Shown one piece after another: positions 1-49,524 of a stretch of DNA of 64,000 bases. Each line of letters starts with the position of its first letter. Within the stretch, counting starts at the first letter, position 1. A model generated the notes under the pieces. It was not told the origin of the DNA. It did not search any database and was given only the letters and a program-made list of their open reading frames with translations. The position numbers and the translations under genes are program-made. Location: contig CAZCNP010000004.1 in assembly GCA_964500725.1 (NCBI GenBank), positions 12,139 to 76,138 on the forward strand, in the 5' to 3' direction. The DNA comes from an uncultured Gammaproteobacteria bacterium (GTDB lineage Bacteria > Patescibacteriota > Microgenomatia > Daviesbacterales > UBA10151).

Positions 1-642
1 GCCCTACTTTCTTTTCTAAAAATTAAATGGGATTTAAACTTGATAAATAATTTAGCCTATGAAGCAGAAAGAGTTTTCCATGGCAACCCCTCTGGTGGAG
101 ATAACTCAACTGTTGTTTTCGGAGGATTAATTTGGTTTAGAAAAGAAGATCCAAGTTTGAAATTAATTCAACCTTTGCAACTTACTATTCCCACCCAGTT
201 AGCTAAAAATTTTGTCTTAATCAACACAGGAACTCCAAAAGAAACTACTTTAGAAATGGTAACCTTAGTAAAAAATCTTTATAAAAAAAGACCAAATCTA
301 GTTGAAAAGTTCCTGACAAATCAGGAAAGCCTGGTAAGACAATTGTTAAATGTTATTAAAGAATGTAATGAGAAAGAATTTATTAAAATTATTAAAGCTG
401 GTGAACAGAATTTAGAAAGTATTGGTGTAGTTTCTCCTCTAGTTAAACCAATTATTAGAAAAATAGAACAAGCTGGTGGAGCTGCTAAAATCTGTGGGGC
501 TGGAGGCAAAACTGGCCCAACAGGAATACTACTTGCATACCATCAAGACAAAAGTAAATTAGAAAATATAGCCAAATCCTTTAACCTTTCCTTTTTCAGC
601 ACTGCTTTAGGAGTAGAAGGCATTGACAAAATGTACATTTAA
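1..642 (+). CDS. GHMP kinase family protein, C-terminal part (phosphomevalonate kinase-like); 5' end lies outside the window
   Basis: The reading frame is open back to position 1. The C-terminal glycine-rich motif KICGAGGKTGPTG is typical of GHMP kinases. The gene sits immediately upstream of mvk and mvaD. Confidence 0.5.
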   Translation, partial: ALLSFLKIKWDLNLINNLAYEAERVFHGNPSGGDNSTVVFGGLIWFRKEDPSLKLIQPLQLTIPTQLAKNFVLINTGTPKETTLEMVTLVKNLYKKRPNLVEKFLTNQESLVRQLLNVIKECNEKEFIKIIKAGEQNLESIGVVSPLVKPIIRKIEQAGGAAKICGAGGKTGPTGILLAYHQDKSKLENIAKSFNLSFFSTALGVEGIDKMYI

Positions 643-25137: not shown

Positions 25138-25144
25138 AACCTAA

Positions 25145-26194
25145 TTATACCACGATCTTTCCGTCCTCTACCTTTAAAATTCTGGAAGAATCTAAAAATT
25201 CTTGAGGAATATGTTCCAGTTCTACTGTAGCAATAATTGTCTGTTGCTTGCTAACTACATCTACTACATGTGCTCTATGAGAAGCATCCAGCTCAGAAAA
25301 AACATCATCCAAAAGCAGTATGGGTCGGGTGCCTAAAATTTTGGCCATATATTCAAGCTGGGCTAGCTTAAATGCTAATGTGGCTGTTCTTTGTTCACCA
25401 CGGGAGCCAAAATGGGCTAAATTACGCTCATCTTGTAGAATTTCAAAATCATCTCTATGCGGTCCAATTAAAGTAGCAGCTGCAACTATTTCCCTCCCGT
25501 TTGTTTCTATTAAATTTTCAACAGTAACCTCGGAAGGAATAAACTTAAAACTAAATCTGCCTAAGGGTTTTTCTAAAGCAGCAATAAACCCAAAAAATTC
25601 TTTTCTTTTGGCAGCAATTATTCTTCCTTGTTCTACTAATCCATCTGTCCAATAGGTTAGCTCATCCTTCCTGCTTATCCCCTCTCGGATTCTTTTTAAT
25701 ACCCTATTTCTAGCTGTTAAAAATTGTTCATAAATTGTTAAAGCCTTTTTATACGCTGAATCAATCTGGGCTAAACTTAAATCTAAATGCCACCTTCTAA
25801 GAGAGGGTGATCCAGTTACCATGTTAATATCCGAAGGATAAAAAATAACTGCCGGCAAATTACCAATAAAATCAACCACTCTTCTTGCTATTCCATTGAC
25901 CAACACCTTTTTCTTAAAACTAACTTCTTTAGTTGGCCTATTAATAATCACCATCAGCTGTGTATTGTTTTCCAAAACCCCCTCTACCCTGGCAAACTCC
26001 TCATTTCTTTTTATTAGCTCCTCTTCTATATCAGCGCGTAAAGATTTAGTGGTAGAAAGAAGATAAACAGCCTCCAATAAATTAGACTTACCAACAGCAT
26101 TATCACCTATTAAAATAGTTGGTCGGCTATCAAAGGTAAATTCTAAATTAGAATAGTTGCGGAAATTCGTTAAATTTAGCTTTTTGAGAAACAT
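25145..26194 (-). CDS. recF: DNA replication and repair protein RecF
   Basis: The Walker A region reads GDNAVGKSNLLEAVYLL. The protein has an SMC-like architecture and is 349 aa. Confidence 0.85.
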   Translation of the reverse strand: MFLKKLNLTNFRNYSNLEFTFDSRPTILIGDNAVGKSNLLEAVYLLSTTKSLRADIEEELIKRNEEFARVEGVLENNTQLMVIINRPTKEVSFKKKVLVNGIARRVVDFIGNLPAVIFYPSDINMVTGSPSLRRWHLDLSLAQIDSAYKKALTIYEQFLTARNRVLKRIREGISRKDELTYWTDGLVEQGRIIAAKRKEFFGFIAALEKPLGRFSFKFIPSEVTVENLIETNGREIVAAATLIGPHRDDFEILQDERNLAHFGSRGEQRTATLAFKLAQLEYMAKILGTRPILLLDDVFSELDASHRAHVVDVVSKQQTIIATVELEHIPQEFLDSSRILKVEDGKIVV

Positions 26195-27588: not shown

Positions 27589-28458
27589 CTAGCTCTGACA
27601 ACTCGGACAAAAGTATGCGCCCCTTCCGCCCAACATGGTTTTCTTAATTTCTGTGCCGCATACCTTACATTTATGCTTATCTCTGCCATAAACAAAAGCA
27701 TAATCTAAAAAGTAACCTTTATGGCCTTCTGGATCCACAAAATGAGCTCGAGTTGATCCACCTCTTGCTATTCCTTCTTTTAAAGATTTTATTATTCCCT
27801 CAAAAAGAGCTTTAAACTGCTTATCTTGCAAATCTTTTACTTTGGTCCTGGGATCAATTTTGGCATTAAAGCATGCTTCATTTGCATAAATATTACCTAC
27901 CCCTGCTACCACTGATTGATCCATAATAGCTACTTTAACTGGCTGAGATTTATGTTTTAAGAGATTTGCTTTAAGAGTTTCCCAGGAAAACCCCTTCTCC
28001 AAAGGTTCTGGCCCTAATTTTTCCAACAAATTTTCAATTATCAATTTTCCATTTTCAATTACTTTAATCCAGCCAAACTTTCTCTGGTCATTAAAATATA
28101 GGTGCGACCCATCAGAAAAAGAAAATATTACCCTGGTATGAGTATTTGGCATTGCATCAACCATGTCAGGTGTAGGATGTCCTCCAATAAACCTTTCCCC
28201 TTTACCCTTCCTGCTTTCTCCTTTCCAGATTAGTTGTCCACTCATTTTTAGATGAAATAATAGAACTTTATCATCACTTACTTCTATGCCTAAAATCTTT
28301 GCCCTTCTCCATATATTGAGTATCTTTTGTCTCTCTACTTCATTAGGATTTCCTAGGAAAAATTTTTTGGATAAAATTTGGATTTTCTGGATTTTTGTAC
28401 CAATAATCCTCTTTTGCAAACCTAGCTTAATTATTTCAACCTCAGGAAGCTCTGGCAT
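27589..28458 (-). CDS. mutM: formamidopyrimidine-DNA glycosylase (Fpg/MutM family)
   Basis: The N-terminus reads MPELPEVE. The C-terminal zinc finger is CKVCGTEIKKTMLGGRGAYFCPSCQ. Confidence 0.85.
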   Translation of the reverse strand: MPELPEVEIIKLGLQKRIIGTKIQKIQILSKKFFLGNPNEVERQKILNIWRRAKILGIEVSDDKVLLFHLKMSGQLIWKGESRKGKGERFIGGHPTPDMVDAMPNTHTRVIFSFSDGSHLYFNDQRKFGWIKVIENGKLIIENLLEKLGPEPLEKGFSWETLKANLLKHKSQPVKVAIMDQSVVAGVGNIYANEACFNAKIDPRTKVKDLQDKQFKALFEGIIKSLKEGIARGGSTRAHFVDPEGHKGYFLDYAFVYGRDKHKCKVCGTEIKKTMLGGRGAYFCPSCQS

Positions 28459-28811: not shown

Positions 28812-29061
28812 GAGTATACAAAGTTATAGGAGATATATCTTCGCTCGCAGGTCTTGATTTTTGTGCCACTAATTTTTTGGCATAAGCTACAGCAGCATGT
28901 ATTTGCTCAGGAGCTAAATGAGGGTAATCTGCTAAAATCTCCTTTTCGCTCATTCCAGCGGACATTCTATCCAATATCAACTCAACAGAGATTCGCGTAC
29001 CTGCAACGATAGGTTTACCGCCTAAAATTTTTGGATCAGAGATAATCTGTGGTTTCCTCAT
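28795..29061 (-). CDS. DUF433-like putative antitoxin
   Basis: An 88-aa protein with DUF433-like PQIISDPKILGGKPIVAGTRISV, overlapping the downstream partner gene. Confidence 0.55.
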   Translation of the reverse strand: MRKPQIISDPKILGGKPIVAGTRISVELILDRMSAGMSEKEILADYPHLAPEQIHAAVAYAKKLVAQKSRPASEDISPITLYTHEISR

Positions 29062-33854: not shown

Positions 33855-34988
33855 TTATGGCTTAAGGTTTTCCTCTACTAATTCCAAAATTTCTTTTTTA
33901 AATCTTTCTTTAGAAAACTTTTCTGCATTTTTTCTGCAAACTTGGGGATCAAACTTTAGGCTTTCAAATTCATGCAAAGCTTTTATTAAGCTTCCTGTAT
34001 TAACCATCCCTGGACCACCATATAACAACCCAGTCTTTTTATCTTCCACTGTTTCTAAAAATCCACCAGATGAGGGAGCAATTACTGGAGTTCCTGCAGC
34101 CTGGGCTTCTATAGAGGTAATCCCAAAATCTTCATCTTCAGCAGCTACTATTAAAGCTTTCGCATTCTGCAGTAAAGTTACCCTTTCCTCATCAGACACC
34201 CAACCTAGAAAGTTCGTAGTTCGTAGTTTGTAGTTGGTAGATAGTTGCTTCAAATTTTCCATCTCCGGGCCGGTGCCTACTACTTTCAAGGGTAAACCTA
34301 ATCTACCGCAAGCTTCAACTACTACATCCGCCCCTTTTCCTCTAACCAATCTACTTAGTACTAAAAAGTAATTTTCCTTCCCCCTTTCCCCTTTATTCTT
34401 TACCCTAAATTCAGACAGATCAACAGGAGGATATATCACTACACTATCTCTTCTGTAAAACTTTTTAATCCTTTTTTGAATATTGTTAGAATTAGCCACT
34501 AATATATCTGGTCTTTGGGAAACTTCAAAATCATAAATTCTTAGAAAATGATTAGCCAACTCCCCTAAGACTCTAGTAACAGGGTTTTTCTTATAGTTAA
34601 AAGAGGTGACATAACCATATAAAAATCTAGGAGGGGTATGAATGTAGCTAATATGTAAAGTTTCTGGTTTGGTTATAACTGCCTTTGCTAGATAGGCTGC
34701 AGAGGAGGAAGAAATCACCAAATCAAACTCTCCCAAATCAAAGCTTTCAAACATCATGGGAGCAAACAACCTAAAAGGAGATAATAATTTATTTGCAAAA
34801 GGGAATTTCTGAAACCAGGAAGTCCTAATATCCCAACTTTTAAATCTTTTGCCATTCTCACCTAAACTCTCAGGGTTATAATAGGCAGTAAAAATGGGAG
34901 CTTCAGGGAAAATATCATGCAGAGCTTCCAATACCCTCTCAGCTCCCCCATATTCCCTTAAATAATCATGTGCCAACGCTACTTTCAT
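33855..34988 (-). CDS. glycosyltransferase family 4 (GT-B fold)
   Basis: The C-terminal GT4 signature EDFGITSIEAQAAGTPVIA is present. The gene carries an in-frame heptamer-repeat insertion at 34211-34247. Confidence 0.8.
   Translation of the reverse strand: MKVALAHDYLREYGGAERVLEALHDIFPEAPIFTAYYNPESLGENGKRFKSWDIRTSWFQKFPFANKLLSPFRLFAPMMFESFDLGEFDLVISSSSAAYLAKAVITKPETLHISYIHTPPRFLYGYVTSFNYKKNPVTRVLGELANHFLRIYDFEVSQRPDILVANSNNIQKRIKKFYRRDSVVIYPPVDLSEFRVKNKGERGKENYFLVLSRLVRGKGADVVVEACGRLGLPLKVVGTGPEMENLKQLSTNYKLRTTNFLGWVSDEERVTLLQNAKALIVAAEDEDFGITSIEAQAAGTPVIAPSSGGFLETVEDKKTGLLYGGPGMVNTGSLIKALHEFESLKFDPQVCRKNAEKFSKERFKKEILELVEENLKP
34211..34247. repeat. tandem heptamer repeat (AGTTNGT)x5 inside the GT4 gene, in frame
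   Basis: The sequence is agttcgt agttcgt agtttgt agttggt agatagt. It shares an identical 23-mer with the trpS gene (48757-48779). Confidence 0.8.
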
Positions 34989-34992
34989 AATT

Positions 34993-35060
34993 AGTGGCTA
35001 GTCGCTAGAGTCTAGAATCAAGCTTGAATTTATTTTCCTAGACTCTTAACTCTAGTCACT
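34993..35060. repeat. short palindromic repeat element (MITE/REP-like), intergenic copy
   Basis: The 5' arm agtggctagtcgctagagtctag and the 3' arm ctagactcttaactctagtcact are imperfect inverted repeats. The 20-mer agtggctagtcgctagagtc is identical to 37723-37742 inside polA. Confidence 0.7.
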
Positions 35061-35863
35061 TAACCCTCCTTTACTGCTTCAATTAATTGCTCAAAACTTA
35101 ATCTAGTTGGTTTGCTATCTGGAGCAGAAGATGAACCACAAATTACCATGTGGTGTGATTGGTGTAGAAACCATGAAGCCTCGGAATCTAACTCTTTTAC
35201 CCTTGTATAAATAGCTTCTATATCTTTATTTGGAGCAAAAAATTGAACTGAGGTATATTTTGGATCATACATTAAATAAAGATCCCCACCCTGCTCCCTG
35301 CAAAATTCCCTATCTACTGTTTCAGAAGAAACTGCAAAAGACTTACCAAATTTGGATTCAAACTCAACCCTTTTTTCCCAATCAATAATTGACTGTTCTC
35401 TCTTTTTCAAAACTTCCAAAATTCTATTTAAGATCTCCTCTCCTAACTCTACCGACTTTAAAGAAGACTCACTAGAATTATCTTTAGTTCTGATAAATGA
35501 TTGAATACTAAACTCATCAAATTGAGAATCTGGAGCTTTTCCTGTATCAATCAATTTATTCCACTCCACCAATTTTTCTAAAGCCTTTTGGGCAATCCCT
35601 TCAGGAATATAGCCTTCTTGTTTTAAATACTCATAAACCAAAGATCCAGCACAGGTTAGCAAACCTTCTTTATGTTCATCAAATTTACCTCCCCCAGTTC
35701 CTAAAAATATTTTGTCTTCATTTTCCTCTTTAGCTGCCAGGTCACGTGATGCAGAAACAAATTCTATTTTTGCCTCTTTAAAATCAGGATGATATTTTTT
35801 AAAAAGCCAAATAGCAGCAATATCATCCAGGTGAGGGTTAATATGTGTAACTAAGGTTTTCAT
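35060..35863 (-). CDS. hypothetical protein (weak DHH-phosphoesterase-like N-terminal motif)
   Basis: The N-terminus THINPHLDDIAAIW resembles DHH motif I. The assignment is not confident. Confidence 0.3.
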   Translation of the reverse strand: MKTLVTHINPHLDDIAAIWLFKKYHPDFKEAKIEFVSASRDLAAKEENEDKIFLGTGGGKFDEHKEGLLTCAGSLVYEYLKQEGYIPEGIAQKALEKLVEWNKLIDTGKAPDSQFDEFSIQSFIRTKDNSSESSLKSVELGEEILNRILEVLKKREQSIIDWEKRVEFESKFGKSFAVSSETVDREFCREQGGDLYLMYDPKYTSVQFFAPNKDIEAIYTRVKELDSEASWFLHQSHHMVICGSSSAPDSKPTRLSFEQLIEAVKEG

Positions 35864-35894
35864 ATATGTATAATGATACTATCTTAATTTTACC

Positions 35895-36827
35895 ATGCTC
35901 ATACTCAAAAAGCTTATTCTTGCCCCTTTTTTTGCAATTATTTTTGCTCTCTTAATTTATCAGCTTACCAGCTTATTAAAGTCTTACGATTTTGTTTTTT
36001 CTTTATCTTTAAACACTTTTACTAGTCTACTGATTCTGTCTGCTTTAATTTGTCTTTCAAGTTTTTTATTTATTCTATTTGCATCTTTATCGCAAGATTT
36101 AAAAATCACCCTACCGGCTACTTTACTCTTTGCTTTGATACCTTTAATCTTTTTGGATATATCTTTGGCATTAGTTTTGGTTGTGGCAATTTTTGTAAGT
36201 TTACTGCTCGCTAGTTTAAATTTAGCTACTAGTTTGAAAAGTTATTTAACCTTCCAGGCTGGAGATTTACTTGGACCTGCTATTAGACATTTATCAGGCT
36301 TTTTGATTTTATCTTTTTGTATAGTTTATTTTTTATCCTCCAGCAAATTAGTTAGTCAAAATGGATTTCAGATCCCCGATTCTTTAATTGATACTGCCTT
36401 AAAATTTAGTATGCCTGCAATCCCCAATAATCAACTTGATCAAGTACAAACAAGCCTTCCTCAAATCACCCCAGAACAACTAGATCTTTTAAAACAAAAC
36501 CCCGATTTACTAAGACAATCTGGTTTGGATCCTAAAATCCTGGATAGTTTAAGCAACCCACAAAAAAATACTCAATCACCAGCAAATTTAACCAATGACC
36601 TGATTAAACAAACAGTCAAGGATCAGATACAAGGCTTTTTAAAACCCTATCTAAGCTTTATTCCTGCAATTTTAGCAGTCCTGCTTTTTTTAACACTTCA
36701 ATCATTTACTTCTATTATCAATCTTCTAATCTATCCACTTCTCTCAGGAACATTTTATATTTTAGAAAAGTCAGGATTTATCAGGTATGAAACAGAACAA
36801 AGACCAGTCAAAAAAATGGTAGTTTAA
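35895..36827 (+). CDS. hypothetical polytopic membrane protein
   Basis: A 310-aa protein with several transmembrane helices and a Q/P-rich loop. Confidence 0.45.
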   Translation: MLILKKLILAPFFAIIFALLIYQLTSLLKSYDFVFSLSLNTFTSLLILSALICLSSFLFILFASLSQDLKITLPATLLFALIPLIFLDISLALVLVVAIFVSLLLASLNLATSLKSYLTFQAGDLLGPAIRHLSGFLILSFCIVYFLSSSKLVSQNGFQIPDSLIDTALKFSMPAIPNNQLDQVQTSLPQITPEQLDLLKQNPDLLRQSGLDPKILDSLSNPQKNTQSPANLTNDLIKQTVKDQIQGFLKPYLSFIPAILAVLLFLTLQSFTSIINLLIYPLLSGTFYILEKSGFIRYETEQRPVKKMVV

Positions 36828-37270
36828 CCGAACTTTCTAACTAACCTTTTTTTAAACACTGTCTCAAAATCATTATCAAAAGTAGCAAAATATTTAATTT
36901 GATTTTCTCTCATCATAAATAGATGATAAGCATCCCTGGCCCTAAGCTGATATTTTTCCATTAATTTTAGTACTTTTGTTTGTTTTTTAAGCTCAAGTGT
37001 AGAGTGAACTAAATTGATATTCTTAAGTTTCTTAATTTTGCCAAAACCTTTTTTCAAATCCTGTAATGCCTCCTTTTTAGGAAATTGAGAAAATCTTAAA
37101 GCATTATGGAAATATTCATCTAATACTAGCGCGGAAATAAATAATGCCCAATTCTGCAGTAAAAGACTAGATATTAATTCTACCGTCTTTTCGTGAAGCT
37201 CCGCAGACGGATTGGTAAAGTATAATAAAATATTAGTGTCAAGATAGCATTTTTTCATATCTCTCTTCAT
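36824..37270 (-). CDS. vapC: PIN-domain toxin VapC
   Basis: The N-terminus reads CYLDTNILLYF and a C-terminal FATFDNDF motif is present. Confidence 0.8.
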   Translation of the reverse strand: MKRDMKKCYLDTNILLYFTNPSAELHEKTVELISSLLLQNWALFISALVLDEYFHNALRFSQFPKKEALQDLKKGFGKIKKLKNINLVHSTLELKKQTKVLKLMEKYQLRARDAYHLFMMRENQIKYFATFDNDFETVFKKRLVRKFG

Positions 37271-37517
37271 ACCTTCTATCCAGCTCTTCCTTAATTTCTT
37301 CAGGGGTCAGATTTGATTTCAATCTAAGACCTACTGCCAAACTTCTAACAAATTTTCTAATTTCCTCTTCCCTATTTTTTTTCTTTCGTTTCAATATAAT
37401 ATTTCCCTGCTTTGCTTCAATTTTCATTTTTTGCCCAGGTTTAATCCCTAACTCCTTGGGTAAAGTTACCACAATAGAAGAACCAAGTTGAAAAGCTGTC
37501 ACTTCATCTTTTATCAT
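37239..37517 (-). CDS. AbrB/MazE-type (SpoVT/AbrB fold) antitoxin
   Basis: A 92-aa protein overlapping the downstream PIN gene. The N-terminus EVTAFQLGSSIVVTLPKELGIKPGQ is a swapped-hairpin-like segment. Confidence 0.6.
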   Translation of the reverse strand: MIKDEVTAFQLGSSIVVTLPKELGIKPGQKMKIEAKQGNIILKRKKKNREEEIRKFVRSLAVGLRLKSNLTPEEIKEELDRRYEERYEKMLS

Positions 37518-37550
37518 ATATATAATATTATCATTTTGATATATATCAAG

Positions 37551-39731
37551 TCAAATTGTAAGTGGCTTCATTTCTCCCCAATTAGGACCAATCTTGAGAT
37601 CAACTATTACTGGCACAGAAAGTTTTAGAGCATTTTCCATTTTATCTTTAACCATTTTGGCAGTCTCTTCTACAGATTTAGGATCACATTCAAATAACAG
37701 CTCATCATGAACCTGGAGGATCATCTGACAGGAGTGGCTAGTCGCTAGAGTCGAGAGTCTAGGAGGGGTATTTTCTTGACTCTTGACTCTAGACTCTAGA
37801 CTCTTATCTATTTCCACCATGGCTTTTTTGATCATGTCAGCGCTCGTCCCTTGAATGGGCATATTGACTGCTGCCCTTTCCCCTGCTGCTTTTAAGCTTC
37901 TATTGCCTACCTTTAGTTCTGGAATATATCTTCTTCTGCCCCAGAGAGTTTCTACATAGCCTTTTTCATATCCAAAAGCTAAAGTTTCCTGCATCCATTC
38001 CCTAACTTTGGGAAACTTTAAAAAATACTCAGCAATATATTCTCTGGCCATTTCATAGCTAATACCCAACTGTCTAGATAAAGCATGTGGGCCCTGTCCA
38101 TATAAAGTAGCAAAATTGATTGTTTTTCCTATCATTCTTTGCTGTCTTGTTACCTCATCTATTGGTACATTAAAAATATTGGCAGCAGTTGCAGCATGCA
38201 CATCCAACTCCTGCTCAAAGGCCTTTTTCAAACCTGGATCATCTGCCAAATGTGCCATAATCCTCAGCTCGATTTGGGAATAATCAGCTGCCAGCAAAAT
38301 TTTACCTTTGGGAGCTATAAAAGCTTTTCTAATTTCTCCTCCCATCTCACCTTTAATAGGGATGTTCTGCATGTTCGGATCTTTAGAAGAGAGCCTGCCT
38401 GTGGCTGCCCCTTCTACATTAAAGGTAGAATGGATTCTTCCTTTTTCGTCTGTATACTTTGGCAAAGCATCAATATAGGTGGAAACCAGCTTGAATAGCT
38501 GTCTGTATTCTAAAAGCAAAGGTATTACAGGATGAGCAGCAGATAGTTCATGCAGAGTAGCTTCATCTGTAGAACGGCCTGTTTTAGTCTTTCTTACTAC
38601 TGTTAAATTTAACTCATCAAAAAGTATCTCTGATAACTGCTTTGGACTGTTTATATTAAACTGATGTCCTACTTTTGAGTAAATATCTTGTTCTAAATCA
38701 ACTAATTTATCCTTTAGCTGCTTGCCAAACTTATTTAAAAACTTAAGGTCTATCAATACTCCAGCAGCAGACATTTTTTGCAAAACTTGTTCTACCTGCT
38801 TATCTAATTTAGCTGTCGCTGACAACTCCTCTTTGACAGCAGGCGTTTGATGTGTAAGAGCTGTTCCGCCAGGAATCCTTTCTATTAAGCTTTTAAATTC
38901 TAGCTCCTCAAATAATTTAATAACTTCCTGCTTGTCAAAATCATGCACTATACATTTTTCTAAATCCAAGCTTATAGGGGCTTTTAGATCTAAAGTCGCT
39001 AATTTTTTGCTAAGGGTTGCAGACTCTGCCCCTTCTGCCAATAGAGTCTGCGTTCTTTGGGGCAAAGTCTGTAGATTTTCTGCCTTATAAATTTCCTCTA
39101 CAGTCCCAAATTGGTGTATTAACTTGGTGGCTGTCACCTCTCCAATCCCATTTACCCCAGGAATATTATCTGAAGCATCTCCTGCTAAGCCTTTGTAATC
39201 CACCAGTTGCTTAGGAAAAAAGCCATACTTGGCAACAAATTCTTCTACTCCATACAAACCTACATCGTTAATAGTTTTTTTAGGCATAAATACCTTAATT
39301 TTTTTATCTATAAGCTGCATAATATCCCTATCACCTGTTACTACCACAATCTCTAAATTTTTATCTTTGTCTGCTTGAATAGCTAGTGTGCCAATTAAAT
39401 CATCTGCCTCAAAGCCTGCCAGGCTAAATTCGGGGATATTAAAGGCTTTGACTACTTCATGAACTCTTTTGTATTGGTTGAATAATCCATCATCTGCAGG
39501 ACCTCTAGTGGCTTTATATTGAGTATATGCCTGATGTCTGAAAGTAGGCCCTTTTTCATCCCAGGCAATGGCAATATATTCTGGATGCAGGTCTGAAACT
39601 ACCCGCAAAAGCATGGAAGAAAATCCATAAACAGCATTAACTAACTCCCCTGTTGAGGTAGTAAAAGGAGGTGTAGCATGATATGCCCTGTGAAGCAGGG
39701 CATTTCCATCAACCAAAACCAGTCTTTGCAT
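37551..39731 (-). CDS. polA: DNA polymerase I (5'-3' exonuclease plus polymerase domains)
   Basis: The N-terminus reads LVLVDGNALLHRAYHA. Motif C reads QVHDELLFE. The protein is 726 aa and carries an in-frame repeat-element insertion just before motif C. Confidence 0.95.
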   Translation of the reverse strand: MQRLVLVDGNALLHRAYHATPPFTTSTGELVNAVYGFSSMLLRVVSDLHPEYIAIAWDEKGPTFRHQAYTQYKATRGPADDGLFNQYKRVHEVVKAFNIPEFSLAGFEADDLIGTLAIQADKDKNLEIVVVTGDRDIMQLIDKKIKVFMPKKTINDVGLYGVEEFVAKYGFFPKQLVDYKGLAGDASDNIPGVNGIGEVTATKLIHQFGTVEEIYKAENLQTLPQRTQTLLAEGAESATLSKKLATLDLKAPISLDLEKCIVHDFDKQEVIKLFEELEFKSLIERIPGGTALTHQTPAVKEELSATAKLDKQVEQVLQKMSAAGVLIDLKFLNKFGKQLKDKLVDLEQDIYSKVGHQFNINSPKQLSEILFDELNLTVVRKTKTGRSTDEATLHELSAAHPVIPLLLEYRQLFKLVSTYIDALPKYTDEKGRIHSTFNVEGAATGRLSSKDPNMQNIPIKGEMGGEIRKAFIAPKGKILLAADYSQIELRIMAHLADDPGLKKAFEQELDVHAATAANIFNVPIDEVTRQQRMIGKTINFATLYGQGPHALSRQLGISYEMAREYIAEYFLKFPKVREWMQETLAFGYEKGYVETLWGRRRYIPELKVGNRSLKAAGERAAVNMPIQGTSADMIKKAMVEIDKSLESRVKSQENTPPRLSTLATSHSCQMILQVHDELLFECDPKSVEETAKMVKDKMENALKLSVPVIVDLKIGPNWGEMKPLTI
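37723..37796. repeat. short palindromic repeat element, intragenic in-frame copy within polA
   Basis: The 20-mer matches 34993-35012 exactly. Palindromic arms are built from ctagactc/gagtctag units. The element encodes an extra segment, roughly RVKSQENTPPRLSTLATSHS, in the PolA protein. Confidence 0.7.
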
Positions 39732-39748
39732 GAGGAAATTCTAACATA

Positions 39749-40753
39749 TTATCTAAATAGAGTTTTGGTATATTCTAAGTATTCAGGATAACCATTTTGA
39801 GCCATGTAAAACCACCACTCCACTCCCCAAAGATAGATAGAATCAAAACCAGTTTTTTGGGCGTACAAAACATTACCTTGTAAATCTTTTGCGCTAAATA
39901 ACCTGACTTGCTCATCCAAAGAAGTATCCAAAACCCCTATATTTGTCCAAGGCTCAGCCTGCAACTCAGAGATAAAAATCTTTTGATTGTTTGGAGCAAA
40001 GAGTTTCTTAACTAAGTTTGCTTTTGCTGGATACATCCACACCGGCAAAGGATATGTTATATACAAATTAAATAGCGAGCTGTATGAGCGCCTATATAGG
40101 GATATGCCTAAGATATCAGACAATTTCATTGGGTCTATCCAATCACTCCATTCTCCACTGTCTGTTGTAACTACTGGTCTACTATCCAGCTTTTTTACTA
40201 GATTAATTTCCTCTTGTAAGAATTTTATATCCGGGGTATCACAATTTTCACCAAACCAATAAGCAAATGGCTCATTTTCCACTTGCCAGGCTGAAATTAC
40301 ATCACTAGTTTTATATTTTTCTACTACAGCTTTTATAAACTCTAATACTTTTTGCTGCCTTTGGGTAATAGTTAAATCTTTTGCCCAGGTAGGAATATGA
40401 CACTCTGGCCAGCGAGGCTGTCTGCTGCCTAATACTAAAACTGCTTTCGCCTCTCTTTTACCAGCCTCCTTTATCAAAAAATCTGTCTCTGAAAAATCAT
40501 ATTGGGCTTTTTGGAATTCTATAGTGTCCCAATAACTGGTTAATCTTAAATTCCTCACCTTTAGATCATCCAAAATCTGAGTATAAACTTTTTGCCAATC
40601 CAAGTTTAAATACTTTGCATATCTAGGAGAAAAAGTCACCCCATATTCCACTTTTTGTGAGGAAGAGTATAACTGCTCATAGACTCTCCCTGAAATAAAT
40701 ATACTTACAAGAATAAATAGTGCTACTAGCGCGGAAAAAAAGATTATGCGCAT
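39749..40753 (-). CDS. putative glycoside hydrolase (TIM-barrel, GH5-like)
   Basis: An N-terminal signal or anchor is present. The catalytic-acid context WQVENEP is typical of clan GH-A. Confidence 0.5.
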   Translation of the reverse strand: MRIIFFSALVALFILVSIFISGRVYEQLYSSSQKVEYGVTFSPRYAKYLNLDWQKVYTQILDDLKVRNLRLTSYWDTIEFQKAQYDFSETDFLIKEAGKREAKAVLVLGSRQPRWPECHIPTWAKDLTITQRQQKVLEFIKAVVEKYKTSDVISAWQVENEPFAYWFGENCDTPDIKFLQEEINLVKKLDSRPVVTTDSGEWSDWIDPMKLSDILGISLYRRSYSSLFNLYITYPLPVWMYPAKANLVKKLFAPNNQKIFISELQAEPWTNIGVLDTSLDEQVRLFSAKDLQGNVLYAQKTGFDSIYLWGVEWWFYMAQNGYPEYLEYTKTLFR

Positions 40754-42328: not shown

Positions 42329-42984
42329 TTTTGGACTCTTTCCGAAAGCACAGTTTTTTCCACTTCATTTAAAGCCGAGGACGAAGCTTCTTTAGCTAAA
42401 AAAGCACAGCTTTGCAATTGATATTTGCTAATCTTATCAGTCAAATGTGGTTTACTCAACTCAGTTAATTTATCAATTAGCTCTTTGTTCCATAAAGAAA
42501 CCCTGTTGACAGTAGATCTAATAGCCATTCTAGCCCGTTTATCTGAAACCTGATTGTAGATTGATTGCAACACACTCATTTGCTCATTTATTCTCCCTGT
42601 TACCTTCTCTATAGCTACCTCGTCTCTGATATTAATCATGCCTTTTAACTCTTGCAGGTGAAATAAATAGCGAATAAGAGTTGGTTCAATCAAATCCTGA
42701 CGAGCTTCAACTAAGCTTTTTGCCTCTCTTATTCTACGTGTGGCAAATTCCATTTGTCTGTAAGCTTTAATTTGACCGTTTCCAGCAAATTGCAGTTCAA
42801 ATATTTCCCTGACTGATTTTAAAAAATATAAAGGTGAAGCTGGAGTAATCTTTGACTCACCAATTGAATCAACTTGGGCATAAGCTGGAGTAATGTAAAA
42901 TGTAAAATGTAAAATGTAAAATGTAAAAAGCAGTAAAACCAATCTAATTGTAAATTGTACATTGTAAATTGTAAATTTTCTCAT
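42307..42984 (-). CDS. secreted hypothetical protein (DUF5667-like)
   Basis: A signal peptide is present. The motif SPLYFLKSVRE is typical of a family common in Patescibacteria. The 5' end of the gene contains heptamer tandem repeats. Confidence 0.4.
   Translation of the reverse strand: MRKFTIYNVQFTIRLVLLLFTFYILHFTFYITPAYAQVDSIGESKITPASPLYFLKSVREIFELQFAGNGQIKAYRQMEFATRRIREAKSLVEARQDLIEPTLIRYLFHLQELKGMINIRDEVAIEKVTGRINEQMSVLQSIYNQVSDKRARMAIRSTVNRVSLWNKELIDKLTELSKPHLTDKISKYQLQSCAFLAKEASSSALNEVEKTVLSERVQKCLILKP
42893..42977. repeat. heptamer tandem arrays (ATGTAAA)x5 and (ATTGTAA)x4
   Basis: The sequence runs aatgtaaaatgtaaaatgtaaaatgtaaaatgtaaaa ... attgtaaattgtacattgtaaattgtaaatt. It overlaps the signal-peptide codons of the 42307..42984 gene and lies downstream of the ABC exporter gene. 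Confidence 0.85.
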
Positions 42985-42994
42985 TACCCCTATT

Positions 42995-44779
42995 CTATCC
43001 TTTTAGTTCGTTTTGGGCAACAATTTTGGCATAAACCCCCTGTTTTGCAAGTAATTGGGCATGTGTCCCATGTTCAACTATTTTACCCTTCTCCATCACC
43101 AATATTTGGTCTGCGTTTTTTACAGTCGAGAGTCTATGAGCAATAATAACTTTGGTAAAAGAACGCTCTACTGATAGATCTTTTAAAGCTTGCTGAATCA
43201 GGCTTTCAGAATGTATATCTAAATGAGAAGTAGGTTCATCCATAATTAATATTTTTGGCTGAGGAAACAAAGACCTGGCTATTGCCAACCTTTGTCTTTG
43301 CCCACCTGATAATTTAACTCCCCTTTCCCCTATTTGAGTTTGATACCCTTGAGGAAGTTCAGCAATAAATTCATCTGCATATGCTAGCCTTGCAGCCTGA
43401 AAAACCTTTTGCTTAACATCAGAAAACTCTACTTTGCCTGCTCCATAAGAAATGATTTCCCAAACTTTTCTGTTTTGGACTGGAGAATCCTGAAAAACTA
43501 CTGAAGTTTGGCCTCTGTAACAATCTAGCTCTAAATCTTTTAAATTATATTTACCGTCAATAACTATTTGGCCCACTTGAGGGTCATAATACCTGCTTAA
43601 AAGTTTGGCGATGGTGGTTTTCCCAGAACCAGATTTACCCACCAAAGCTGTAAAAGAACCTGCAGGAATAGTAAAGCTGACATTTTTTAGGACTCCTTTT
43701 TTCTTATATGCAAAAGTTACATGTTTAAAACTGATTCTCCCTGCAATATCTACTGTAAGCGCACCGGGACTATTAACAATACTGGGCTTTTGAGACAGCA
43801 AGGAGATTACCCTATCCACTGGCTCAGAGGCATCAATCGCTCTTTCATAAATCCAGCCCAATTGAAAAATATTGGAATAGGCTCTTTCAGTTAAAGAAAT
43901 TAAAAACACCAAGCTTCCTACAGTTATTAATCCCAACCTAATTTCATAAATACCTACTATCAAAAGCACGGCATACATAAATTCTATGCTCAAACTCCTT
44001 AAAAACCCATTGATCATATGCAACCTAAACTCTTTTACGGAAAAAGCTTTAATCTCGTCCCAAATTGAGGAGAAGGTTTTGGCCTCCCTGTCTTCTTGAG
44101 CAAAAGCTTTTACTACTGTAATATTTGTCAGCGTATCCCCTATCTCACCTGAGGAGGTTTCATAAGCATTATGACGCGCCTCCCTAAATTTATGAGTAGT
44201 TTGATAAGTCTTGAACATATTTATAATGAAAGGGATTAAAGAAAGAGTAAAAATAATTCCAAAAATCCAGTTAACAAAAATCATCAACACTCCACTAACA
44301 ATAAGTTGGATTACCACAGGTTGAAAACTCCAACCATAGGTGGCTAAAAGATCAATTAATTTATCCCTTCCTTTGTTAACAATATTGATTTTATTACCAG
44401 TATTTTCTCTTTCATGGTAATCCAAAGAAAGCTGCAACATCTTATTAAAAGTTTGCCTGGAGACATATTGCTCAGACTTCCATAGAAGCCTTACCAAAAC
44501 AATATCTATTAAGTAATCAATGATCAAAGATAAAATCCTGATTCCTATTAAGCCTCCAATTACCAAAGCTGCTGATTTAAAAGTTAAAAGACCTTTGGTA
44601 GAAATTAACAGATCCAGTATTTTTCCAAAAAGGTATGGGGCTATCATCCTGACTATTTGGAAAATTACAGTTATGAAGACAATAGAATAGAAATCCCTAC
44701 GAAAGGGCTTCATCAAAAGCCATATTTTTTGTAATACATTCATTCTCTTTGATCGTAACATATCTTCCTCTCTTACCAT
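42995..44779 (-). CDS. ABC transporter, fused permease/ATP-binding protein (exporter type)
   Basis: A 6-TM N-terminal domain is followed by the Walker A GKSGSGKTT, the ABC signature LSGGQRQRLAIARSL and the Walker B ILIMDEPTS. Confidence 0.9.
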   Translation of the reverse strand: MVREEDMLRSKRMNVLQKIWLLMKPFRRDFYSIVFITVIFQIVRMIAPYLFGKILDLLISTKGLLTFKSAALVIGGLIGIRILSLIIDYLIDIVLVRLLWKSEQYVSRQTFNKMLQLSLDYHERENTGNKINIVNKGRDKLIDLLATYGWSFQPVVIQLIVSGVLMIFVNWIFGIIFTLSLIPFIINMFKTYQTTHKFREARHNAYETSSGEIGDTLTNITVVKAFAQEDREAKTFSSIWDEIKAFSVKEFRLHMINGFLRSLSIEFMYAVLLIVGIYEIRLGLITVGSLVFLISLTERAYSNIFQLGWIYERAIDASEPVDRVISLLSQKPSIVNSPGALTVDIAGRISFKHVTFAYKKKGVLKNVSFTIPAGSFTALVGKSGSGKTTIAKLLSRYYDPQVGQIVIDGKYNLKDLELDCYRGQTSVVFQDSPVQNRKVWEIISYGAGKVEFSDVKQKVFQAARLAYADEFIAELPQGYQTQIGERGVKLSGGQRQRLAIARSLFPQPKILIMDEPTSHLDIHSESLIQQALKDLSVERSFTKVIIAHRLSTVKNADQILVMEKGKIVEHGTHAQLLAKQGVYAKIVAQNELKG

Positions 44780-44780
44780 T

Positions 44781-44812
44781 AAAAAACCAGCCTGCTTAAG
44801 CTGGTTTCCATA
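44781..44812 (-). terminator. hairpin plus U-tract (minus-strand terminator/attenuator) just upstream of the ABC exporter start
   Basis: The stem accagc/gctggt (aaaccagcctgcttaagctggttt) is followed on the minus strand by TTTTTT. Confidence 0.4.
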
Positions 44813-44814
44813 AT

Positions 44815-44846
44815 TTTAAATTGTAAATTATAAATTTTAAATTTCT
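44815..44846. repeat. TGTAAAT-like heptamer repeat tract
   Basis: The tract ttttaaattgtaaattataaattttaaattt is related to the array at 42947-42977. It sits on the other side of the ABC exporter gene. Confidence 0.6.
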
Positions 44847-45111
44847 TCCATTTTTAGTTTAAAAGTTATGGAAATTCCCCTCGCTTGAAGAGAAAAACCA
44901 GCGAAAATATTTAACTTAGGTACGTGTATTGCCATATACAGGTTGATTTCCAACTTTGGTTTGAGGGAAACTGGCCAAGAAGGAGTTTAAACCTTTTGAG
45001 TACAAATTGTCAACTTTTGCTACAATCAAACTAATGGCCATAATTTACACTAAGCATGCAAACGAAATGTTAGTTGTTAGGGACATCAATAAAAAGTAAA
45101 ATACAATAACT

Positions 45112-48528: not shown

Positions 48529-49524
48529 TTATTTAAAGTAGTCAAGTTTCATGGCCTTTTTAACTTCAGCCAAAGTCTTTTGGGCTTCTGCCCGGGCTTT
48601 GTCAGTTCCCTCTTTTAATATCTTTTCTACCAATTCTGGCTGGGTTTCATATTCAGCTCTCTTTTTTCTAATTGGATCCAAGAAATTATTTAAAACTTGG
48701 ACTAGATATTTTTTTACCTCAATATCCCCTACTTGGCCCCTTGAGTAAAGTAGTTTGTAGTTCGTAGTTTGTAGTTGGTCGCTCTCAGACCCAAAAGCAT
48801 CAAGATATATAAAAACAGGGTTTCCCTCTACATGTCCTGGGTCTGTAGCTTTTATTCTAGTAGGGTCTGTATACATACTCATCACTTTTTTTTCTACTTC
48901 CTCAGTTGAATCAGTTAAAAAAATGGCATTATTTAAAGATTTTCCCATTTTAGCTTGGCCATCTATACCTGGTAAAGTTGGCACCTCCCCTATCAAAGGT
49001 TCAGGGATAGGAAAAACTTCTCCATAAGTGCTATTAAACTTAATGGCAATATCCCTAGCATATTCCACATGAGCTTTTTGGTCTTTTCCTACAGGCACTA
49101 GATTAGCCCGAGGAAGCAAAATATCTGCAGCCATTAAAACTGGGTAATAAAATAAACCCACAGTATCTTCAGACCCTTGGTCTAATTTTTCCTTTAAAGC
49201 AGGCTGCCTGGCAATCAAAGCTCTAGGGGTTAAAACACTTAAAAAATAAGCCAGCTCTAACACTTCTGGAACTTGGGATTGGATAAAAAAGGTAACTTTA
49301 TTAGGATCTAACCCCACAGATAAATACCCTAACATCAATCCTTTAATATTTTCTTCCAGCTGATCTGCTTTATTAAAATGAGTAGTCAGAGCATGGAGAT
49401 CTACCAAGGGTATAAACATTTCATACTCATCTTGCAGTTTAACCCTATTTTTTAAAGAACCAATGTAATTACCCAGATGAAAACTATCATTGGTAGGCCT
49501 ATCCCCTGTTAAAATCCGTTTCAT
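48529..49524 (-). CDS. trpS: tryptophan--tRNA ligase
   Basis: A class I HIGH-like signature TGDRPTNDSFHLGNYIG is present, with the KMGKS-like KMGKSLNNA. It contains an in-frame heptamer-repeat insertion. Confidence 0.95.
   Translation of the reverse strand: MKRILTGDRPTNDSFHLGNYIGSLKNRVKLQDEYEMFIPLVDLHALTTHFNKADQLEENIKGLMLGYLSVGLDPNKVTFFIQSQVPEVLELAYFLSVLTPRALIARQPALKEKLDQGSEDTVGLFYYPVLMAADILLPRANLVPVGKDQKAHVEYARDIAIKFNSTYGEVFPIPEPLIGEVPTLPGIDGQAKMGKSLNNAIFLTDSTEEVEKKVMSMYTDPTRIKATDPGHVEGNPVFIYLDAFGSESDQLQTTNYKLLYSRGQVGDIEVKKYLVQVLNNFLDPIRKKRAEYETQPELVEKILKEGTDKARAEAQKTLAEVKKAMKLDYFK
48749..48780. repeat. tandem heptamer repeat (AGTTNGT)x4 inside trpS, in frame
   Basis: The sequence is agtagtttgtagttcgtagtttgtagttggtc. 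A 23-mer is identical to GT4 gene positions 34216-34238. It encodes the segment ...QLQTTNYKLLYS.... Confidence 0.8.

What the first reader, a model, noticed from the sequence alone, without database searches (positions are those of the whole stretch)
34993..35060. Palindromic MITE/REP-like element present both intergenically and in frame inside polA
A ~70-bp element with imperfect terminal inverted repeats (agtggctagtcgctagagtctag ... ctagactcttaactctagtcact) lies between the GT4 gene and the next ORF. A second copy sharing an exact 20-mer, with the same palindromic ctagactc/gagtctag architecture, lies at 37723-37796 inside the DNA polymerase I gene. There it is read in frame and adds ~16-24 residues just before catalytic motif C (QVHDEL). 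A mobile palindromic element tolerated inside an essential polymerase is notable.
Basis: seen in the sequence. Interest (0 to 1): 0.75.

Follow-up and report, generated by a model that had tools for sequence, protein, structure and literature searches.

The report
Palindromic repeat read inside DNA polymerase I
Two copies of a roughly 70-base hairpin-forming repeat sit in this Candidatus Daviesbacteria (CPR) genome, one filling a gene junction and one translated as about 20 extra residues in a loop of DNA polymerase I; this is a new phylum and architecture for a phenomenon already known from Rickettsia elements and intragenic REPs.

Summary
The sequences at 34993-35060 and 37733-37806 share an exact 20-mer (0 expected by chance). 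Both fold as hairpins (z about -4.5). Their arms are inverted runs of the heptamer GAGTCTA/TAGACTC.

The window comes from a Candidatus Daviesbacteria MAG. Scans of public genomes and metagenomes found about 49 non-redundant copies.
- 29 lie at operon junctions, 0-10 nt before an ATG.
- 15 are in frame in PolA, RecG, Fpg, RadA, GyrA, DnaX and TsaD.

The 14 in-frame copies that pass filtering all use one frame (..ESRVKSQ..RLSTLATS[HD]) that is free of stop codons.

Orthologous sites exist empty and filled, both for the GT4 junction and for the polA loop. PolA gains 18 residues relative to Taq, between helix Q and the motif C strand. In 35 of 52 Daviesbacteria PolA orthologues this loop carries 13 or more extra residues. 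At least five unrelated hairpin families were verified at this site at the DNA level.

Best reading: a non-autonomous REP/REPIN- or MITE-like palindromic element that survives only at permissive sites. No target-site duplication or transposase was found. Tests for a promoter, a terminator, an Rfam family, strand asymmetry and SD-bridging enrichment were all negative.

Precedents are the Rickettsia RPEs and intragenic REPs in repair genes, including Pol I. I rate it a new variant of a known kind, of moderate interest.

The parts
34993..35060 (.). Element copy 1. It is a 68-nt hairpin with arms 34993-35015 and 35038-35060 and a loop at 35016-35037. It fills the junction between the 267-aa ORF and the GT4 gene.
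   Evidence: Sequence. Fold -24.8/-24.5 kcal/mol, z -4.8/-4.3. Stop codons in all six frames.
34993..35012 (-). Conserved terminal 20-mer of copy 1. It reads GACTCTAGCGACTAGCCACT in the sense of the flanking genes and ends 4 nt before the GT4 ATG.
37733..37806 (-). Element copy 2. It is a 74-nt hairpin translated in the polA frame as ..K-SLESRVKSQENTPPRLSTLATSH-SC.. (residues about 644-666).
   Evidence: Sequence. Translation. Fold -41.4/-32.7 kcal/mol, z -4.6/-4.9. Zero stops in the used frame, 2 and 4 stops in the other two sense frames.
37733..37752 (-). Conserved terminal 20-mer of copy 2, identical to that of copy 1.
37774..37805 (.). Period-7 array (TCTTGAC/TCTAGAC, 4.6 units) that forms one arm of copy 2.
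   Evidence: Tandem Repeats Finder.
37551..39731 (-). polA. It encodes a 726-aa family A DNA polymerase with a 5'-nuclease domain, no recognisable 3'-5' exonuclease domain, and intact motifs A, B and C. This is the host gene of copy 2.
   Evidence: ORF. 100% identical to an NCBI Candidatus Daviesbacteria protein with PF02739, PF01367 and PF00476. Taq/Klenow/Bst alignment E 1e-108.
33855..34988 (-). GT4 glycosyltransferase gene. Its ATG lies 4 nt after copy 1.
35060..35863 (-). 267-aa ORF with no Pfam match. The last base of its TAA stop is the first base of copy 1.
35065..35071 (-). Shine-Dalgarno-like AAGGAGG, 5 nt 5' of the hairpin base of copy 1. It lies 77 nt from the ATG in the linear sequence and about 7 nt away if the hairpin folds. 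It is shown as a feature only. The family-wide test for this arrangement was not significant.
   Evidence: control (13 observed, 11.1 expected, p=0.28).

Best explanation
Both sequences are copies of a non-autonomous, DNA-level palindromic repeat family of Daviesbacteria-type CPR bacteria. The family is REP/REPIN-like or MITE-like. The basic unit is about 30 nt, CTAG(N3) repeated with period 7, and ends in ..CTAGCGACTAG(Y)CACT. The unit contains its own 25-nt stem-loop. Two units in inverted orientation form the 60-125 nt hairpin (median 71 nt). Copies are gained and lost at individual loci. In a genome that is about 95% coding, they persist only where they do little harm. One such place is the tiny stop-start junctions inside operons, where the element's TAGs often supply the upstream stop codon and its end abuts the next ATG. 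The other is the single stop-free reading frame in surface loops or linkers of proteins. In polA the copy is translated. It lengthens the loop between helix Q and the beta-strand carrying motif C by about 20 residues without touching the catalytic motifs. What is shown: the repeat family, the hairpins, the dispersal, the empty and filled orthologous sites, the single reading frame, the purging of stop codons from intragenic copies, and the hot spot in PolA. What is inferred: transposition (or another copy-and-insert process) driven by an enzyme encoded elsewhere, neutrality of the PolA insert, and surface exposure of the loop.
For: - An exact 20-mer is shared by the two window copies, with 0 expected by chance. 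Both are hairpins with z about -4.5.
- The 20-mer occurs at 12 loci in at least 8 genomes. A degenerate form occurs at 45 metagenome loci. Together these give 54 non-redundant hits, about 49 of them credible, at different genes.
- Junction copies sit before rplW, rpsQ, rplO, rpsC, rplN, rpmI, dnaK, lon, pnp, ftsA, ahcY, mevalonate-pathway genes and GT4.
- In-frame copies sit in PolA, RecG, Fpg, RadA, GyrA, DnaX and TsaD.
- All 14 filtered in-frame copies use the same frame with 0 stops, and 26 of 27 junction copies have stops in that frame.
- Empty versus filled orthologous sites were found for the GT4 junction (empty in L016/L017, TAA-TA-GTG; filled in the window and L015), the polA loop (empty in L016; filled in the window, L014 and L015), Fpg, and the S17, S3 and L14 junctions.
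- PolA orthologues without an insert have a Taq-length loop.
- The same loop carries unrelated hairpin inserts in L013, L063, L064 and L065 (z -4.0 to -5.0), and the empty allele has no hairpin.
- In the AF2 model the insert has pLDDT below 50 across residues 654-668.
- Published precedents: RPEs fused in frame in 19 Rickettsia ORFs (PMC2229807, PMC10969869); intragenic REPs encoding 20-30 aa in replication and repair proteins including DNA polymerase I; and REP termini supplying TAG stops to flanking ORFs (PMC3733652).
Against: - No target-site duplication could be defined. In the filled alleles of polA and fpg the short host loop (TGK; SFSDGS) is replaced rather than simply interrupted.
- No transposase or RAYT was identified, and the search for one was not done.
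- The 20-mer is exact, or nearly so, across genomes whose PolA proteins are only 70-80% identical. A 33-nt unit is almost invariant at one orthologous junction in six diverged contigs. This suggests selection or gene conversion rather than neutral junk.
- Orientation relative to the flanking genes is strongly biased: about 31:3 at junctions and 14:0 in frame. A purely random insertion model does not predict this.
- Recurrent occupation of one PolA loop by many families needs either a very small set of permissive sites or hairpin-targeted insertion.
Confidence: 0.7

Rival explanations
1. The unit is a selected cis-acting signal at gene starts, for example an mRNA-processing or stabilising hairpin, or a module for translational coupling or a split ribosome-binding site. 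On this view the intragenic copies, including polA, are by-products.
For: - 29 of 54 copies end 0-10 nt before an ATG. Many of the downstream genes are highly expressed (ribosomal proteins, DnaK, Lon, PNPase).
- Orientation is biased about 31:3.
- The unit is nearly invariant at one junction in six diverged contigs.
- In empty S17 and S3 junctions the SD lies 6-9 nt from the ATG, and in filled ones the unit sits between that SD and the ATG.
- In the window copy AAGGAGG comes within about 7 nt of the AUG if the hairpin folds.
Against: - The close spacing to the ATG is expected anyway, because the original junctions were only 0-15 nt long.
- The family-wide SD-bridging test was not significant: 13 observed, 11.1 expected, p=0.28.
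- No promoter-like or terminator-like match lies at the element, and there is no Rfam family.
- There is no sense/antisense folding asymmetry that would point to an RNA-level structure (p=0.5).
- The same junctions are empty in related genomes.
- Three junction copies are in the opposite orientation.
Confidence: 0.2
2. The hairpins arise locally, through heptamer slippage followed by template switching at a structurally fragile site. They are not copies of a dispersed element.
For: The window is rich in period-7 tandem repeats, many of them in frame in genes. The polA loop carries different heptamer-based hairpins in different lineages.
Against: An identical 20-mer and a 30-nt arm at about 49 unrelated loci and in many genomes cannot be generated independently. 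Most other period-7 arrays in the window do not form hairpins.
Confidence: 0.03
3. The polA segment is not part of the mature protein. It would be removed like an intron or intein, or bypassed by the ribosome, or it would be a MAG assembly artefact.
For: A strong hairpin lies inside an essential gene. Inteins do occur in some PolA orthologues (P0029, P0072).
Against: All 14 filtered in-frame copies keep one frame free of stops, while the other sense frames and the junction copies are full of stops. This is the signature of translation. The inteins sit elsewhere, at QG|T around residues 627-629. There is no Rfam intron match. Three independent assemblies carry the orthologous insert.
Confidence: 0.04

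Closest known systems
Rickettsia palindromic elements (RPE; Ogata et al. 2000, as reviewed in PMC2229807 and PMC10969869)
   Same: Both are dispersed palindromic repeats found intergenically and fused in frame into conserved, often essential proteins. Both use an open frame carried by the element. The inserts are thought to be tolerated in loops.
   Different: RPEs are 105-146 bp, specific to Rickettsia, and unrelated in sequence. The present element has a median length of about 71 nt, is built from period-7 CTAG units, occurs in CPR bacteria, and often occurs as a solo half-unit at junctions.
Intragenic REPs of the GTAG/CGTC superfamilies (Di Nocera et al. 2013, PMC3733652) and REPIN-RAYT systems (PMC3116915)
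   Same: Both have a short stem-loop unit with a terminal tetranucleotide. Inverted dimers form a larger hairpin. The termini supply TAG stop codons to flanking ORFs. Intragenic inserts encode 20-30 aa and are concentrated in replication and repair proteins, including DNA polymerase I. Here 6 of the 7 in-frame host proteins are DNA enzymes.
   Different: The terminal tag here is GTGG/GTGA/GTCG, not GTAG. The arms are heptamer-periodic. No RAYT has been sought or found. About 30% of copies are intragenic, far more than is usual for REPs.
Bacterial MITEs (Correia/NEMIS, ERIC, RUP; PMC2229807)
   Same: Both are small, have terminal inverted repeats, encode no transposase, occur in many copies, fold into long stem-loops, and sometimes form in-frame fusions.
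   Different: No TA or other target-site duplication could be demonstrated, and no cognate IS is known.
Cyanobacterial STRR heptamer repeats (from my own knowledge, not tested here)
   Same: Both are tandem heptanucleotide units that can occur as inverted arrays able to form hairpins.
   Different: STRRs are intergenic, cyanobacterial and different in sequence. Here the arrays are frequently translated.

Membership tests
MITE | Small size (<300 bp) with no transposase coding capacity | tested here: met
   The window copies are 68 and 74 nt. The family spans 60-125 nt. The junction copy has stops in all six frames.
MITE | Terminal inverted repeats | tested here: met
   AGTGGCTAGTCGCTAGAGTCTAG ... 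CTAGACTCTTAACTCTAGTCACT. The conserved terminus is ..CTAG(Y)CACT.
MITE | Target-site duplication | tested here: inconclusive
   Filled and empty alleles were compared for the GT4 junction, polA, fpg and the ribosomal-protein junctions. No consistent duplication appeared. The flanks are A/T-rich (TAA/TA), and the host loop residues are replaced.
MITE | Many copies at non-homologous loci, with presence/absence at orthologous loci | tested here: met
   about 49 copies; empty and filled sites.
MITE | Cognate autonomous IS with matching termini | not tested
   No whole genome was available to scan. None of the fetched loci shows a transposase between two element ends.
REP / REPIN (GTAG superfamily) | 20-40 nt imperfect palindromic unit | tested here: met
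   A 25-nt stem-loop CTAGTCNCTAG-ACT-CTAGCGACTAG lies inside the conserved arm (folds).
REP / REPIN (GTAG superfamily) | Conserved terminal GTAG tag outside the stem | tested here: inconclusive
   The terminus reads GTGG, GTGA or GTCG. A GTGG variant is reported for Opitutus terrae GTAG-20 (PMC3733652). Canonical GTAG is not present here.
REP / REPIN (GTAG superfamily) | Inverted dimers forming a larger hairpin (REPIN) | tested here: met
   30 of 47 copies have a recognisable inverted left arm. 17 are solo or have a degenerate left arm.
REP / REPIN (GTAG superfamily) | Extragenic location | tested here: not met
   15 of 54 copies are in frame inside genes. Intragenic REPs are nevertheless documented (PMC3733652).
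REP / REPIN (GTAG superfamily) | Single-copy RAYT (Y1 transposase) in the same genome, flanked by REPs | not tested
   This needs whole-genome protein searches of Daviesbacteria MAGs.
Rickettsia palindromic elements | Membership of the RPE-1..10 sequence families of Rickettsia, 105-146 bp | tested here: not met
   The host is Candidatus Daviesbacteria. The median size is 71 nt. Sequence similarity to RPEs was not compared directly.
Rickettsia palindromic elements | In-frame fusion into conserved proteins through one open frame of the element | tested here: met
   All 14 filtered in-frame copies use one frame in 7 proteins.
Family A DNA polymerase (host gene) | Intact motifs A (DYSQIELR), B (RxxxKxxNFxxxYG) and C (QVHDE) | tested here: met
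   Translation; alignment to Taq, Klenow and Bst, E about 1e-108.

The most novel reading that the evidence does not exclude
Daviesbacteria and related CPR bacteria may carry several families of heptamer-periodic palindromic modules that are not simply tolerated. On this reading they are actively directed to a few hairpin-prone sites: the loop before motif C of PolA, the PolA domain linker, loops of other DNA enzymes, and stop-start junctions. They turn over there rapidly. They are kept by selection, for example to tune the activity or fidelity of replication and repair enzymes (as speculated for intragenic REPs in PMC3733652), or to organise translation in largely SD-less, leaderless-type genomes. 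The period-7 architecture would then point to one shared, still unknown generating enzyme.
Probability: 0.12. Interest if true: 0.8.

Novelty: new variant of a known kind. Interest (0 to 1): 0.55.

Why it matters
CPR bacteria are regarded as extremely streamlined. Even so, this lineage carries several families of hairpin repeats that are written into essential proteins and into the junctions of ribosomal-protein operons.
- This affects annotation: spurious C-terminal tails, shifted start codons and apparent 'hypervariable' protein regions.
- It affects MAG assembly and phylogenetic markers.
- It extends the puzzling link between intragenic palindromic repeats and DNA replication and repair enzymes, previously noted in Proteobacteria, Verrucomicrobia and Rickettsia, to a deeply divergent phylum.
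- The PolA loop is occupied by many unrelated hairpins or by none. It is therefore a natural experiment on how much insertion a family A polymerase palm can accept.

Tried and rejected
- **Exact-sequence lookup of the window PolA:** it found nothing, although an identical NCBI protein exists.
- **Rfam:** no family matched at E<=1 across 34500-38300.
- **Sigma-70 promoter and intrinsic terminator scans:** no match at either copy, and counts were no higher than in shuffles.
- **Viral contigs:** no copy found.
- **RNA-strand asymmetry (G-U versus A-C pairs):** sense and antisense folds did not differ over 47 copies (p=0.5).
- **CTAG/GANTC avoidance elsewhere in the window:** only mild (CTAG 0.74 of expectation).
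- **Split ribosome-binding site (hairpin bringing SD to AUG):** this looked attractive for the window copy and some ribosomal-protein junctions. A position-matched control gave 13 observed against 11.1 expected, so I do not claim it.
- **Intein-scar idea for the conserved Cys after the insert:** rejected, because the inteins of P0029 and P0072 sit at QG|T about 40 residues upstream.
- **AlphaFold2 model of PolA:** too poor (mean pLDDT 66.5, pTM 0.43) to map the loop in three dimensions. Placement therefore rests on the alignment to Taq.
- **Target-site duplications:** not resolved.
- **Other period-7 repeats in the window:** mostly not hairpins, so they are a related curiosity and not copies of this element.
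- **NJ tree of PolA:** too star-like to count independent insertions rigorously.

Full report
**Observation.** The sequence at 34993-35060 reads AGTGGCTAGTCGCTAGAGTCTAG, then a 22-nt loop, then CTAGACTCTTAACTCTAGTCACT. A second sequence at 37733-37806 starts with the same 20 bases and ends in a run of TCTTGAC/TCTAGAC heptamers. The 20-mer occurs exactly twice in the 64-kb window, even when 3 mismatches are allowed, and never in 100 shuffles. Both regions fold into long hairpins on either strand (-24.5 to -41.4 kcal/mol, z -4.3 to -4.9). The arms are inverted arrays of one heptamer (GAGTCTA/GAGTCAA and its complement), so CTAG recurs every 7 nt.

**Context.** Copy 1 fills the entire gap between two co-directional minus-strand genes. 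The last base of the TAA stop of a 267-aa ORF is the first base of the element. The ATG of a GT4 glycosyltransferase follows the other end after 4 nt. Copy 2 lies inside a 726-aa family A polymerase gene (37551-39731, minus strand). That protein is 100% identical to an NCBI protein of Candidatus Daviesbacteria. The element is read in frame as K-SLESRVKSQENTPPRLSTLATSH-SC, immediately before QMILQVHDEL, which is motif C. Motifs A and B are intact.

In the alignment to Taq polymerase (E 1e-108) the query has 18 extra residues between AMVKLF and PRLEEMGARMLLQVHDEL. This is the loop between helix Q and the strand that carries the catalytic aspartate. The naming of these structural elements comes from established knowledge of Klentaq. 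An AlphaFold2 model was of low quality overall (pLDDT 66.5). It places residues 654-668 in a coil with pLDDT below 50, between a helix (629-652) and a strand (671-674).

**Orthologues.** I aligned 52 Daviesbacteria PolA proteins (68-82% identical by BLASTP). The stretch between DMIKKAM and QVHDEL varies from 31 to 57 residues.
- Eleven proteins have a Taq-like short loop (for example KELTGKCNLILQ).
- Thirty-five carry 13 or more extra residues.
- The extra residues fall into many unrelated sequence types.

I verified this at the DNA level. The window, L014 and L015 carry the GAGTCTA family. L013 carries a TCAGTCG/CTGA family. L063 carries a GAAAATTG family. L064 carries a GCTAACAGC family. L065 carries a GTCATTCCCGC...GGGATGAC family. 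All of these fold as hairpins (z -3.6 to -5.3). The empty allele in L016 does not fold (z +0.6). A second hot spot is the linker after the 5'-nuclease domain.

An NJ tree of the conserved columns is star-like. It places the same insert type on separate branches, with different types or none in neighbouring proteins. This suggests rapid turnover, although the tree cannot count events.

**The family.** The exact 20-mer occurs at 12 loci in at least 8 species-representative genomes. A slightly degenerate pattern hits 45 metagenome loci. None occurs in viral contigs. After removing duplicates there are 54 hits, about 49 of them credible.
- Twenty-nine end 0-10 nt upstream of an ATG. The downstream genes differ: ribosomal proteins L23, S17, L15, S3, L14 and L35, dnaK, lon, pnp, ftsA, ahcY, mevalonate-pathway genes, rseP, GT4, and a small membrane protein.
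- Fifteen lie inside long ORFs: PolA, RecG, Fpg, RadA, GyrA, DnaX and TsaD.
- The rest include three junction copies in the opposite orientation.

All 14 filtered in-frame copies use one and the same reading frame (..ESRVKSQ..[S/P]RLSTLATS[HD]..). That frame has no stops, while the other two sense frames do. In contrast, 26 of 27 junction copies have stops in that frame too. The difference comes from GAGTCTA units being replaced by GAGTCAA. This is the pattern expected if intragenic copies are translated and purged of stop codons.

Thirteen of 14 in-frame copies are full hairpins. About half of the junction copies are solo right arms, or have a degenerate left arm that lies within the 3' end of the upstream ORF. 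Upstream ORFs frequently run into the element and end at one of its TAGs, 20-36 nt before the next ATG.

**Gain and loss.** The GT4 junction is empty in L016/L017 (TAA-TA-GTG) and filled in the window and in L015. In L013 it holds an unrelated 576-nt insert. The polA loop is empty in L016. The Fpg site filled in L008 and L041 is empty in the window and in L016. The S17, S3 and L14 junctions occur empty, filled with this family, or filled with the CTGA family in different contigs. No consistent target-site duplication emerges from these pairs. In polA and fpg the few host loop residues are replaced rather than flanking the insert.

**Tests of function.** There is no Rfam match. No promoter-like or terminator-like site lies at either copy. 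Sense and antisense strands fold equally well, so nothing points to a strand-specific RNA structure.

Most genes of this genome lack a Shine-Dalgarno sequence, and many have TATAAT ending 6 nt before the ATG. In the window copy an AAGGAGG sits 5 nt before the hairpin base, and the ATG sits 4-5 nt after it. Folding would therefore restore a normal SD-AUG distance. In empty ribosomal-protein junctions the SD lies 6-9 nt from the ATG, whereas in filled ones the unit separates them. However, a position-matched control shows that the family-wide frequency of such arrangements is what chance predicts (13 against 11.1, p=0.28). I therefore treat this as a possible reason for tolerance at individual sites, not as a demonstrated function.

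**Comparison with known systems.**
- In behaviour the element matches Rickettsia RPEs, which are in-frame fusions in conserved proteins (PMC2229807, PMC10969869).
- It matches even more closely the intragenic REPs described by Di Nocera et al. (PMC3733652). Those are short stem-loop units with a terminal tetranucleotide. Inverted dimers are common. The termini provide TAG stops to neighbouring ORFs. The inserts encode 20-30 aa and are concentrated in replication and repair proteins, including DNA polymerase I. Here 6 of the 7 in-frame host proteins are DNA enzymes, which echoes that report. With 7 sites and an unknown sampling bias I do not put a p-value on it.
- Membership of the GTAG-REP superfamily is not established. 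The tag here is GTGG/GTGA/GTCG, and no RAYT has been looked for.
- Membership of MITEs fails on the unresolved target-site duplication and the unknown parent IS.
- The heptamer-periodic construction, the high intragenic fraction (about 30%), the CPR host, and the multi-family hot spot in one PolA loop are the new aspects.

**Conclusion.** The most likely account (about 0.7) is a non-autonomous palindromic repeat that spreads by an unlinked enzyme. It is retained at the few permissive places a 95%-coding genome offers, and the polA copy is a translated, probably near-neutral loop extension. The main rival (about 0.2, and not mutually exclusive) is that the junction copies are selected as RNA or translation modules. 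That rival rests on the strong conservation of the unit across diverged genomes and on the orientation bias, both of which remain unexplained.

Noticed in passing
window-wide, e.g. 39732-39760 (upstream of polA), 35864-35890, 28812-28830, 25138-25160: Only about 20% of ORFs have an SD-like motif. Many have TATAAT/TAGAAT (often with TG) ending 6 nt before the ATG. This suggests widespread leaderless-type starts in this Daviesbacteria genome.
   Followed up: partly
17600-17633 (carB), 19669-19701 (carA), 28029-28060 and 28192-28226 (fpg), 34211-34240 and 34376-34394 (GT4), 48750-48776 (class I Trp/Tyr-tRNA synthetase), 54895-54924 (NTP transferase): Imperfect period-7 tandem repeats are read in frame inside ordinary enzymes. 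Most do not form hairpins. Two of them (34211, 48750) are (GTAGTTN)n arrays.
   Followed up: partly
16152-16191: A near-perfect 14-bp hairpin (GCTAGATTTGCTAGC...GTTAGCAAGTCTAG) lies in frame inside carB, z -2.9.
   Followed up: no
42880-42995 and 44780-44870: Heptamer arrays (AATGTAA, AATTGTA, AATTTTA) form hairpins at the 5' end of a DUF5667 gene and upstream of the neighbouring 594-aa gene (z -3.9 and -3.2). The annotated N-terminus MRKFTIYNVQFTI... is probably element-derived.
   Followed up: no
PolA orthologues P0001-P0120; linker after FKSLIxRxPG (window residues about 286-308): This is a second hypervariable hot spot, in the 5'-nuclease/polymerase linker. It carries peptides typical of translated palindromic repeats (VIPANAGIQ...LDPRLRGDD; VIASGAKQS...IASSPAPRND). 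DNA hairpins were verified in L015 (z -4.6), L064 and L065. The window's own linker shows no hairpin (z -1.2).
   Followed up: partly
P0029, P0072 (PolA orthologues of 1164 and 1153 aa): Inteins with LAGLIDADG/Hom_end domains are inserted at QG|T (window residues 627-629), about 40 residues upstream of the hairpin hot spot.
   Followed up: partly
L005, L007, L012, L014 (binchicken MAGs titled 'uncultured Gammaproteobacteria'): These contigs carry Daviesbacteria-like genes. Their PolA is 75% identical to the window's, and their RecG is nearly identical to that of a Daviesbacteria MAG. They also carry the same repeat. The taxonomic label looks wrong.
   Followed up: no
L013:14467-14967: In the closest relative (PolA 82% identical), the GT4 junction that holds copy 1 in the window instead carries a 576-nt insert with an antisense 166-aa ORF. 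That ORF weakly resembles ROS/MucR zinc-finger regulators (E 1.4e-4, below the Pfam cut-off).
   Followed up: partly
L003:1850-1982, L055:8350-8484, L013 polA loop: A second heptamer family (TCTGACAGCTGAAAGCTGAAGACTGATAGC, with AGCT every 7 nt) behaves in parallel. It sits between SD and ATG of rpsC and rplN, and in frame at the same PolA loop.
   Followed up: partly
L019 (radA): One RadA protein carries two different in-frame palindromic inserts. The GAGTCTA family follows the zinc ribbon, and a LAVSDSLLAAKSEQRKAN-type insert lies further on.
   Followed up: no
In-frame hosts across loci (L007, L008, L010, L019, L021, L022, L029, L036, L039, L041, window): Six of the seven distinct proteins carrying this family in frame are DNA replication or repair enzymes (PolA, RecG, Fpg, RadA, GyrA, DnaX). 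A junction copy also precedes gyrB (L032). This parallels the published enrichment of intragenic REPs in such genes (PMC3733652).
   Followed up: partly
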